Source: Escherichia coli (GTDB taxonomy: Bacteria; Pseudomonadota; Gammaproteobacteria; Enterobacterales; Enterobacteriaceae). From it: a DNA stretch of 64,000 nucleotides. The stretch lies in the NCBI RefSeq assembly GCF_011045215.1, contig NZ_CP049201.1; one strand, given 5' to 3'. The position numbers were made by a program. Each line of letters starts with the position of its first letter. Positions within the stretch are counted from its first letter, which is position 1. Below are positions 39,001 through 42,000 of this stretch, in pieces.

Positions 39001-42000
39001 AAATGAGCAGGATTTACCGCTTTCGCTAACCGTAGTCGGCATTGCACCGGAAGAGCTATCAGCATGGGCTGGCGCAGATGCTGAACGCCTGACCGTTACG
39101 GCTCTGCCCGCCATTACCACTTATGGCGAACCGGAAGGGAACCTGCTAACAGGGCCGTGGCAGCCTCGCGTCAGCTACCGAAAACAGTGGGCGCGCTGGC
39201 GAGTGATGATTCTGCCGATATTGCTGATTCTGGTTGCGCTGGCAGTGGAACGGGGCGTGACGTTATGGAGCGTCAGCGAACAGGTGGCGCAAAGCCGCGA
39301 CCAGGCTGAGAAACAGTTCTTAACGTTGTTCCCGGAGCAGAAGCGGATTGTGAATTTACGCTCTCAGGTGACGATGGCGCTGAAAAAATATCGCCCACAG
39401 GCCGACGATACCCGGCTGCTCGCCGAGTTGTCAGCGATAGCCAGCACCCTGAAATCAGCGTCACTTTCCGACATCGAAATGTGTGGTTTCACCTTTGATC
39501 AAAAACGCCAGACGCTTCACCTCCAGTTGCGGGCAGCAAACTTTGCCAGTTTCGACAAACTGCGTAGTGCACTGGCAACCGATTATGTTGTGCAACAGGA
39601 CGCGTTACAGAAAGAAGGTGATGCGGTTTCCGGCGGCGTAATGTTGCGGAGGAAATAACATGTTACGCGATAAATTTATTCACTATTTTCAGCAATGGCG
39701 TGAACGCCAGTTAAGCCGTGGCGAACACTGGCTGGCACAACACCTGGCGGGGCGTTCTCCGCGTGAAAAGGGCATGTTACTGGCAGCGGTGGTGTTCCTG
39801 TTTAGCGTCGGATATTACGTCCTCATCTGGCAGCCGTTGAGCGAACGGATAGAACAACAGGAGACGATGTTGCAGCAGCTGGTGGCAATGAACACCCGAC
39901 TGAAGAACGCCGCGCCGGATATTATTGCAGCGCGAAAATCTGCCACAACAACGCCTGCGCAGGTATCGCGGGTCATCAGTGACAGTGCTTCCGCGCACTC
40001 GGTGGTCATCAGGCGGATAGCCGAGCGTGGGGAGAATATTCAGGTCTGGATAGAACCTGTGGTGTTTAATGACCTGCTGAAATGGTTAAACGCACTGGAT
40101 GAAAAATATGCGCTGCGGGTGACACAAATTGATGTCAGTGCTGCTGAGAAGCCTGGGATGGTGAATGTGCAGCGGCTGGAGTTTGGACGGGGGTAAAGTA
40201 TCAGGAGATTAATATCAATAACATTACTCTCGTTAACGTGGCGAGAGTAATTCCCCCAGACTTTATAAGCTAATTTTTTTCGTGAAGGTTATTGTCAGAT
40301 CCAAAAGCAAAAACCCGCCTTGTGGGCGGGTTCTTAAGAATTAGTGGTGCCCGGACTCGGAATGAAACTGGTTATATAACCAATTGTTTTGTATTGACTG
40401 TTTTGCCTTTGCTGTTTTCGGGGCCACCAATGAGGCCCCCATGTGCAATTCGAATTCTTTTGACGCTATAATCCCTCTTTTTTGTGCTTTGCTGTAATCA
40501 TTTTGTCTGGTTCGATGTGTTGATGCGCGGAGTCGTACTTAACGCATTTGTTAGCTGGTCAGAACACTCAATGCTGTTTGTCTGAAACAGGAGTAGGCTT
40601 CTTCCCAGTCAATCTGTGTATTACCAAATACCATCGGTTTAACAAACCGTTGAAAACGCAATTTGTGTACAGGATCATCCCGGAGTGCATCCAGCCCTTT
40701 CTTAAGTTCATCAACTGGTGAGCTACAAAATTGTGGGTACTGGTTACCATAGCGTTCAATATCCTGTTGAATACATATCTGAACAAAATTTTTCAATACA
40801 GGAACATTCACACCTTTTTCCCTGACAATGCAGTAGTTGTCGTAAATGTGACGTACCAGGAACTCATCATCCTGTTGTTCGGGATTACGAAGATGTGCTG
40901 CTGTTCTTCGCATCATGGAGATGAGCTTTTCAGCCTGAGTGGACAAAATGGTGGCACAGGGGAATGCTGTTACAGGTGTACCTTTACCCGTTAACTCCGT
41001 GACAAGTGAATAAATATCTCTGCTTTCCGGATGTTCCAGCAGGGTGCTTTCCATCAACTCCAGCTTAATAAATGGACGAAGACAGGGGACTTGCGCAAAT
41101 GTCTGGGGATAACGTACCGAGATTTCGTTATAACGATACTCATCACGTGTTATACGGGCGTTTTCATTATCCAGGCTGAAAATGTCAGAATTATTAATAA
41201 CATCCGTGATTATTTGCACGATTTTCTTGCGAATTTTTCTTCTCTTGTCTCTGCCATTTTGCATAAAGTTCTCTGTTGGCACGAGCTTTATATCAATATC
41301 TTCTGACATTCTGTTCAATGAGATACCTGCTTTTGACAATGCGGTACCTCCTGCAAACACGAGAGTATGTGTTTCTGGTTTTATTTCTTTTAGTAACTTT
41401 AAAAGATTAACCACAAAATAATCTTTTTCGACGATAGCGACAGATTCAATATCCAGTGCGTTGGCAACGTCAGGAAATAATGATGTTAATTCAGGCATTG
41501 ATTTTACTTTTCCCTACAACTAACACTCTTTTAAAGCGAGGAGGTGTTTTGAACTCCGGAGACACCGGAATCTGTGTGGACTGACCTTTATTGTAGCATT
41601 CTGTTGCGCCGATCAAGCTGTATCTGATATTCAAAAGATCCAGGGCTTCGGTGATTACAGCAGCAGAGCCACCAGGTGCTGCAGGCATTATTTTTCCTGT
41701 AATAACGTTGCGACGGGCTTTGGTGTAAACACCATAGCCCACCTTCATCAACTTACCTTCGTTTACCAGTGTACGAAGAGCTCTGCCAACCTGATCATAG
41801 CCAGCGATATCCCTGAAGTCATCCCGGGTGAACACATAACGCTTTGAACGGTTCAGTCGGGACTGAATACGGTCTTTTGTAGTCATGCTTCCTCCGAAAA
41901 ATATTAAGAATGATAGCAACAATACGGCATGTTTAATAGCGGGGCAGGGTCACATTACCTTTCGGTCAATACATTTGGATAGTATTTCTCAATAATATCA

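What the first reader, a model, noticed from the sequence alone, without database searches (positions are those of the whole stretch)
40305..40363. Island junction: 19-nt tRNA-Phe 3'-end fragment next to the native tRNA terminator, with no intact tRNA
Immediately after gspM there is a terminator hairpin and then tggtgcccggactcggaat, the reverse complement of the last 19 nt of tRNA-Phe including CCA; the sequence then diverges. This is the signature of the distal att direct repeat left by site-specific integration at the 3' end of a phe tRNA gene. Everything to the right is therefore island cargo, and the intact tRNA and integrase should lie beyond the right edge of the window.
Basis: partly seen in the sequence, partly recalled or inferred. 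Interest (0 to 1): 0.6.

Follow-up and report, generated by a model that had tools for sequence, protein, structure and literature searches.

The report
pheV island junction (attR) in E. coli
This is the far-end scar (attR) left when a mobile genomic island inserted into the 3' end of the E. coli pheV tRNA-Phe gene; it is real, but it is a common, textbook and already published kind of junction.

Summary
Window 40345-40363 is the exact reverse complement of the last 19 nt (with CCA) of E. coli tRNA-Phe. It lies 8 nt from the native pheV terminator (40308-40336, minus strand) and 111 nt after gspM/yghD. The window is collinear with K-12 up to that 19th nucleotide and then diverges into lower-GC, CP4-like island genes.

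The window holds no tRNA, no integrase and no yqgA-side flank. Three complete genomes share this junction. Each has a P4-type integrase beside an intact tRNA-Phe, 54 kb (ETEC4085), 79 kb (strain 67-1) and 102 kb (E24377A, published) away.

The same island end, 99.8% identical, also lies at the identical pheU gene in other strains. There the similarity stops exactly at the CCA. This is a site-specific attR of a "GI-pheV" island, a class described in detail (PMC11537424: 19-bp and 23-bp attR types, island in 62% of reference genomes).

The island's other end in this genome could not be reached, because the closest draft assemblies break about 47 kb into the island. The finding is ordinary, known biology and of low interest.

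The parts
39660..40196 (+). gspM/yghD, last gene of the T2SS-beta operon; the last chromosomal backbone gene before the junction
   Evidence: ORF. PGAP names it YghD in E24377A and ETEC4085 at the aligned position. Pfam T2SSM in 98% identical loci. Collinear with K-12 yghD.
40308..40336 (-). Native intrinsic terminator of pheV: a 12-bp stem followed by TTTTTGCTTTTGG on the minus strand. It is now separated from its tRNA by the island.
   Evidence: Terminator scan, fold of -22.8 kcal/mol, identical to the sequence downstream of pheV in K-12.
40343..40363 (-). attR core / distal direct repeat. 40345-40363 is the last 19 nt of tRNA-Phe (ATTCCGAGTCCGGGCACCA on the minus strand). 40343-40344 (AG) extends the identity with attL to 21 bp.
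   Evidence: Matches the 19-bp attR type of PMC11537424 Table 1.
40364..40545 (.). Island terminal arm, non-coding. It is inferred to be the attP-derived arm that carries recombination-protein binding sites.
   Evidence: Present at >=80% coverage in 1113 of 5426 complete E. coli genomes, usually once per genome. It always follows the 19-mer at pheV, at pheU and in tandem arrays. The function is inferred.
40551..41886 (-). AbiEii toxin (40551-41498) and AbiEi-like DUF6088 antitoxin (41491-41886), the first cargo genes
   Evidence: Pfam AbiEii and DUF6088 on the identical AbiEii protein and on neighbours in 98-99.8% identical loci. PGAP names.
41955..50727 (-). CP4-like 'yee/yfj' backbone: DUF4942, DUF957, DUF5983, CbtA toxin (43579-43956), CbeA antitoxin (44003-44377), DUF987, RadC (44743-45219), antirestriction protein (45235-45720), DUF932 (45812-46630), DUF905, a 178-aa protein, a 433-aa protein with no family, a WYL-like regulator, and a YfjP-type GTPase (49843-50727)
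   Evidence: Pfam tags on loci L047 and L051-L054, which align to the window without gaps at 98.5-99.8%. RadC and GTPase were confirmed on the window's own ORFs.
50912..64000 (+). Further island cargo, all on the + strand: 376-aa protein, YagK/YfjJ (53577-54308), IS110 remnant (about 54.4-55.3 kb), YfjI/DUF3987 (55479-57083), second YagK/YfjJ (58673-59239), AlpA-type HTH (60141-60374), UCP030791 protein (60641-61204), and a 970-aa UvrD-like/ankyrin protein open from 61240 to the window edge
   Evidence: ORFs. Pfam tags on 99.5-99.6% identical contigs L007, L009 and L011. The frame is open, with 0 stops in 920 codons. No integrase, no tRNA, no further att copy.

Best explanation
The 19-mer is the attR core of a genomic island integrated into the pheV tRNA-Phe gene (a 'GI-pheV').

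Inferred mechanism: a P4-family tyrosine integrase carried by the island recombined a circular island (attP) with the last 19-21 bp of pheV (attB). The island's own copy of those bases then completes the tRNA next to the integrase (attL). The displaced chromosomal copy stays attached to the native pheV terminator and gspM (attR, seen here). The island runs rightward from 40364 past the end of the window. Its integrase and the intact pheV should lie tens of kilobases further on, before yqgA.

Shown: the sequence identity, the exact breakpoint, the island content, the same architecture with integrase and intact tRNA in relatives, and the same island at pheU.

Inferred: catalysis by the integrase, the position of the other end in this genome, and whether the island can still excise.
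For: The 19/19 match is unique in the window. Collinearity with K-12 yghD-terminator-pheV stops exactly after tRNA nt 58.

attB (K-12), attR (window) and attL (ETEC4085, 67-1, L056, L059) share AGTGGTGCCCGGACTCGGAAT, with flanks swapped as reciprocal site-specific recombination predicts.

Relatives with the same junction have a P4-type integrase (Pfam Arm-DNA-bind_3, Phage_int_M, Phage_integrase) directly after an intact tRNA-Phe. This lies 54 kb away in ETEC4085 and about 79 kb away in 67-1. The published E24377A GI-pheV is 101,767 bp with an attR of this type.

An island end 99.77% identical over 11.1 kb lies at pheU next to cadC in GCA_014889175.1, and the homology ends exactly at the CCA. 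pheU and pheV are identical in sequence. The same integrase protein is found after pheV and after pheU.

GC drops at the junction. The literature gives 19-bp and 23-bp attR types and finds GI-pheV in 41 of 66 reference genomes.
Against: The island's integrase and the intact pheV of this genome were not seen. The window ends inside the island. No complete E. coli genome in the collection matches the island closely. Draft contigs 99.5-99.6% identical to the window's right-hand part break about 47 kb into the island, in a capU-like gene.

pheV loci are often composite, as in E24377A and the C5 record, so the nearest integrase may belong to a neighbouring element. The yfjI/alpA module is on the opposite strand to the yee module, which suggests a mosaic history.
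Confidence: 0.9

Rival explanations
1. Fossil junction of a decayed island. The attR is genuine, but the tRNA-proximal part in this genome (the integrase, or pheV itself) has been deleted or inactivated, so there is no intact tRNA and integrase pair and the island is fixed in place.
For: The island contains IS remnants and fragmented ORFs, such as the IS110 pieces at about 54.4-55.3 kb. PMC11537424 reports islands without a full-length intP4 (12 of 91 in ST131) and many GI-pheV that have lost one repeat. E. coli has a second identical tRNA-Phe gene, pheU, so loss of pheV would be tolerated.
Against: The repeat is perfect at 19/19, and 21/21 against attL of relatives. A 99.77% identical copy lies at a different att site in another strain, which argues for recent mobility. 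All three complete relatives examined keep both integrase and tRNA.
Confidence: 0.07
2. Outermost junction of a tandem array. Two or more Phe-tRNA-targeting elements lie head to tail at pheV, so the island adjoining this attR ends at an internal partial tRNA copy, and the intact pheV lies beyond a second element. This is a variant of the best explanation, not a contradiction of it.
For: E24377A has a 49-nt pheV 3' piece plus integrase 30 kb from the attR, with an SPI-7-like ICE and more island beyond it. Its published total is 101.8 kb. The C5 record has this island end abutting another integrase. L057 has the integrase directly after ICE genes and no tRNA.
Against: There is no second att copy within the 23.6 kb of island visible in the window. 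ETEC4085 has no internal tRNA-Phe-like repeat at two or fewer differences.
Confidence: 0.25
3. Chance similarity, or truncation of pheV by an unrelated insertion or deletion (IS, transposon or illegitimate recombination) rather than site-specific integration.
For: None, beyond the absence of the integrase from the window.
Against: Only 0.01 matches are expected by chance. The breakpoint is identical in many independent genomes and at both pheV and pheU. The att flanks are reciprocal. No IS end lies at the junction.
Confidence: 0.01

Closest known systems
GI-pheV of E. coli (PMC11537424, PLoS Genet 2024), in particular the 19-bp attR type and E24377A_GI-pheV
   Same: Same chromosomal site, between yqgA-pheV and yghD. 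Same attR: the window reads TTTCATTCCGAGTCCGGGCACCA in tRNA sense, E24377A reads TTTTATTCCGAGTCCGGGCACCA, and CFT073 reads TTTCATTCCGATTCCGGGCACCA. Same terminal arm, and the same AbiE and yee-module end as E24377A.
   Different: The repeat here is a perfect 19-mer, whereas the intP4.1 (UPEC) type carries a T substitution. The cargo beyond about 20 kb is not matched closely by any complete genome. The integrase allele is unknown.
CP4-57, CP4-44 and CP4-6 cryptic prophages of E. coli K-12 (P4-integrase islands at ssrA and tRNA genes)
   Same: Shared backbone in the same order: YfjP/YeeP-type GTPase, DUF932 (YfjQ), antirestriction protein, RadC (YeeS), YeeT, CbeA/CbtA (YeeU/YeeV), plus the YfjI, YfjJ/YagK and AlpA modules. 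The paper also links the flu and yee modules to CP4-44.
   Different: Different attachment site. Here the yfjI/alpA module is on the opposite strand to the yee module; the comparison with the K-12 gene order is from my own knowledge. An AbiE pair sits at the very end.
Satellite phage P4 integration into the 3' end of a tRNA-Leu gene, the prototype of the integrase family (own knowledge)
   Same: A tyrosine integrase with an arm-binding N-terminal domain, a core of about 20 bp that duplicates the tRNA 3' end, and regeneration of the tRNA at attL.
   Different: P4 is a small replicating satellite phage. This is a large non-phage mosaic island (at least 24 kb, probably at least 47 kb) with no phage structural genes in view.
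pheU- and pheV-located pathogenicity islands (LEE in EPEC/EHEC, PAI I-CFT073, PAI V-536, she PAI of Shigella flexneri)
   Same: They use the same pair of identical tRNA-Phe genes and are flanked by a 3'-end repeat (cited in PMC11537424). Here too the same island end occurs at both pheV and pheU.
   Different: None of their hallmark virulence loci is present in the window. Close relatives instead carry a pap-like fimbrial operon and an shf-capU-virK-like operon further in.

Membership tests
tRNA-Phe-integrated genomic island (GI-pheV): attR junction | Direct repeat identical to the 3' end of the tRNA gene, including CCA | tested here: met
   19/19 to K-12 pheV nt 58-76. Unique in the window.
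tRNA-Phe-integrated genomic island (GI-pheV): attR junction | The repeat abuts backbone that is collinear with the empty site (attB) of an island-free strain | tested here: met
   The window is collinear with K-12 yghD-terminator-pheV up to nt 19 and then diverges.
tRNA-Phe-integrated genomic island (GI-pheV): attR junction | Intact tRNA followed by a P4-type tyrosine integrase at the other end (attL) | not testable with these tools
   This lies outside the window, which has no tRNA or integrase. It is met in relatives that share the junction: ETEC4085, 67-1 and E24377A.
tRNA-Phe-integrated genomic island (GI-pheV): attR junction | Reciprocal att flanks: attL and attR combine the flanks of attB with those of an inferred attP | tested here: met
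   Junction sequences were compared. The attL island flank is identical at pheV and pheU.
tRNA-Phe-integrated genomic island (GI-pheV): attR junction | The same element is found at alternative copies of the target (pheU), with homology ending at the core | tested here: met
   L054 is 99.77% identical over 11.1 kb and the homology ends at the CCA. The flank beyond it is K-12's pheU downstream sequence.
tRNA-Phe-integrated genomic island (GI-pheV): attR junction | Island-like composition and content | tested here: met
   GC 46.8% against 52.6%. Toxin-antitoxin, antirestriction, AlpA, YfjI and IS remnants are present.
tRNA-Phe-integrated genomic island (GI-pheV): attR junction | Excision to a circular form (attP) that leaves an intact attB | not testable with these tools
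   This needs PCR or read-level data from the strain.
Rho-independent terminator (the native pheV terminator) | GC-rich hairpin followed by a T-run on the transcribed strand, just downstream of the gene | tested here: met
   12-bp stem plus T-run on the minus strand, 8 nt after the CCA. Identical in K-12. Termination activity was not tested.

The most novel reading that the evidence does not exclude
The island behind this attR is a currently mobile element that moves between the two identical tRNA-Phe genes, pheV and pheU. The supporting points are a perfect 19-21-bp repeat and copies 99.8% identical over 11.1 kb at the two loci in different strains. Its cargo includes a pap-like fimbrial operon and an shf-capU-virK-like operon, which in one public record is shared with a plasmid. 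That would make it a tractable example of ongoing exchange between islands and plasmids.
Probability: 0.3. Interest if true: 0.3.

Novelty: already known. Interest (0 to 1): 0.1.

Why it matters
The junction gives an exact left boundary (40363/40364) for annotating this genome. Everything left of it is E. coli backbone (glc, sslE, T2SS-beta) and everything right of it is horizontally acquired. It also shows that the pheV hotspot is occupied.

It does not open a new question. tRNA-Phe islands, their 19-bp and 23-bp attR repeats and their P4-type integrases are well described. The only mildly useful points are that the repeat is perfect and that a near-identical island lies at pheU elsewhere, which hints at recent mobility.

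Tried and rejected
1. Finding the source genome. No complete E. coli genome is closer than about 98% on the backbone or about 94% on the island, so the window could not simply be extended.

2. Walking rightward by exact-protein look-ups. This reached about 47 kb into the island in contigs 99.5% identical to the window's right-hand part. Those drafts all break in a capU-like gene. Contigs that pass that point lead into different mosaics (T6SS, CDI, plasmid genes), so the walk did not reach an integrase and was stopped.

3. The only complete record with the fimbrial/capU cargo is C5 'plasmid A', which is not in a pheV context.

4. NCBIfam named only RadC and the GTPase among 20 island ORFs. Pfam found nothing for the 433-aa ORF.

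5. Rfam found no family in 38000-64000. A repeat search found no second att copy or any informative repeat.

6. A tRNA truncated by an IS or by chance was considered and rejected.

Full report
**Observation.** The sequence at 40305-40363 reads ...AAAAACCCGCCTTGTGGGCGGGTTCTTAAGAATTAG TGGTGCCCGGACTCGGAAT.
- The 19-mer at 40345-40363 occurs once in the window even with three mismatches allowed, against 0.01 matches expected by chance.
- K-12 pheV was fetched from NC_000913.3. It ends ...TTCGATTCCGAGTCCGGGCACCA. Its reverse complement begins TGGTGCCCGGACTCGGAATCGAACC, so the window carries exactly the last 19 nt, CCA included.
- A three-way alignment shows the window, K-12 and E24377A identical from the end of yghD/gspM, through the hairpin, to that 19th base. 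K-12 then continues into the body of the tRNA, while the window and E24377A continue into a shared foreign sequence.
- The hairpin is a terminator on the minus strand, which is the tRNA's strand. It has a 12-bp stem followed by TTTTTGCTTTTGG and lies 8 nt after the CCA.
- ARAGORN finds no tRNA in the 64 kb. Rfam finds nothing in 38-64 kb.

**What lies on either side.**
- Left: the K-12 segment pheV-yghD-...-pppA matches the window leftward from 40363. The window also carries the T2SS-beta genes that K-12 has deleted. This is E. coli backbone: glc, sslE, gspC-M.
- K-12's other flank (mltC-nupG-speC-yqgA plus the first 57 nt of pheV) has no match anywhere in the window.
- Right: GC drops from 52.6% to 46.8%.
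- The genes to the right are, in order: an AbiEii/AbiEi pair, DUF4942, DUF957, DUF5983, CbtA/CbeA, DUF987, RadC, an antirestriction protein, DUF932, DUF905, a WYL-like regulator and a YfjP-type GTPase, all on the minus strand. On the plus strand follow YagK/YfjJ, YfjI (DUF3987), AlpA, a UCP030791 protein and a 970-aa UvrD-like/ankyrin ORF that runs off the window. This is the CP4-57/CP4-44-like backbone typical of E. coli tRNA islands.
- tblastn with two island integrases finds nothing in the window. No second att copy is present.

**Is it a site-specific att junction?** Three lines of evidence say yes.

First, relatives that share the junction have the predicted far end.
- In ETEC4085 the yghD-terminator-repeat is followed by a 54-kb island that ends in a tyrosine integrase, an intact tRNA-Phe, yqgA and speC.
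- In strain 67-1 the same integrase and an intact pheV lie about 79 kb from the repeat.
- For E24377A, PMC11537424 lists a 101,767-bp GI-pheV. Its end coordinate, 3,427,276, is exactly the base homologous to window 40345, and its attR is TTTTATTCCGAGTCCGGGCACCA.

Second, the junction sequences are reciprocal.
- attB (K-12): AAGAATTAG-core-CGAACC.
- attR (window): AAGAATTAG-core-GAAACTGG.
- attL (ETEC4085, 67-1 and others): GAAGTGAAAG-core-CGAACC.
- The core is TGGTGCCCGGACTCGGAAT, and the preceding AG is also shared.

Third, the same island end occurs at the other, identical tRNA-Phe gene.
- Contigs that encode the identical AbiEii protein fall into a gspM (pheV) context and a cadC (pheU) context.
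- One pheU copy (GCA_014889175.1) is 99.77% identical to window 40345-51450, and the homology stops exactly at the CCA.
- The sequence beyond it is K-12's native pheU downstream region, and pheU and pheV are identical.
- The identical integrase protein likewise follows pheV in some genomes and pheU in others.
- The 182-bp non-coding arm next to the repeat (40364-40545) is present in 1113 of 5426 complete E. coli genomes. This fits a conserved attP arm; that function is inferred.

**Mechanism.** The inferred mechanism follows established knowledge of P4-family tyrosine integrases. Int recombines attP on a circular island with the 3' end of the tRNA gene. The island-borne copy of the core rebuilds the tRNA at attL, beside int. 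The displaced chromosomal copy remains beside the tRNA's own terminator as attR. The feature found here is that attR.

**What could not be shown.** The other end of this particular island was not reached.
- No complete genome in the collection matches the island closely.
- Contigs 99.5-99.6% identical to the window's right-hand part continue through MFS, M20-peptidase, AraC-like and EAL genes, an IS66, a pap-like fimbrial operon and an shf-capU-virK-like operon. These drafts all break about 47 kb into the island.
- Contigs that pass that point diverge into other mosaics.
- The island is therefore at least 23.6 kb by direct observation and probably at least 47 kb.
- pheV loci can be tandem arrays, as in E24377A and the C5 record. 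That cannot be excluded here.

**Comparison with what is known.** PMC11537424 (PLoS Genet 2024) describes GI-pheV in detail.
- It was found in 41 of 66 reference genomes.
- Sizes ranged from 9.7 to 110 kb.
- The attR was either a 23-bp or a 19-bp direct repeat that includes part of pheV.
- The islands are classified by intP4 allele and share flu and yee modules with CP4-44.
- The window's attR belongs to the 19-bp class and is perfect, whereas the UPEC intP4.1 type has one substitution.

**Verdict.** The feature is an ordinary instance of a well-described junction, useful as an annotation boundary and not as a discovery.

Noticed in passing
window 40345-51450 versus L054 (GCA_014889175.1, contig AAWLJH010000018.1): The island end is 99.77% identical to a copy at pheU (cadC flank) in another strain. 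The backbone left of the junction is only about 98% identical to any pheV-context relative. This suggests recent horizontal movement between the two tRNA-Phe genes.
   Followed up: partly
window 30693-38694: This stretch of the T2SS-beta operon (gspD-gspK region) is absent from K-12 MG1655, which keeps only yghD/E/F/G. The window carries the complete sslE-pppA-gspS-gspC...M locus.
   Followed up: partly
NZ_CP010123.1 (E. coli C5 'plasmid A'), 168-214 kb; loci L035 and L048: A record labelled as a plasmid carries this island's end with the 19-nt repeat, followed by the pheU-type terminator and an intact integrase that corresponds to K-12's yjdQ remnant region. It also carries the fimbrial/capU cargo and true plasmid genes (RepB, ParM, CcdAB). 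It is either a plasmid-chromosome hybrid or a misassembly.
   Followed up: partly
window 47616-48917 (minus strand): A 433-aa ORF is conserved in all close relatives of the island but has no Pfam or NCBIfam match, even at permissive thresholds.
   Followed up: partly
window 50912-64000 versus 40551-50727: The yfjI/yagK/alpA/helicase module is entirely on the plus strand, divergent from the minus-strand yee/GTPase module. The same layout is seen in E24377A, ETEC4085 and a selC island of RM8082, so it is a conserved mosaic and not a local inversion.
   Followed up: no
L015, L025-L028 (draft contigs of close relatives), about 47 kb into the island: Several independent draft assemblies all end inside the same capU-like glycosyltransferase gene of an shf-capU-virK-like operon. 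This suggests a second copy elsewhere in those genomes, for example on a plasmid.
   Followed up: no
window 52043-53576 and 57084-58672: Two AT-rich stretches (2-kb bins that cover them are 38-41% GC) of about 1.5 kb each have no ORF of 80 aa or more and no Rfam hit.
   Followed up: no
L005 14982-15000 (ETEC4085) and L047: Some relatives carry the same attR with a 1-nt deletion in the G-run (TGGTGCC-GGACTCGGAAT). This mirrors the deletion-bearing attR listed for many strains in PMC11537424. The window's copy is intact.
   Followed up: yes
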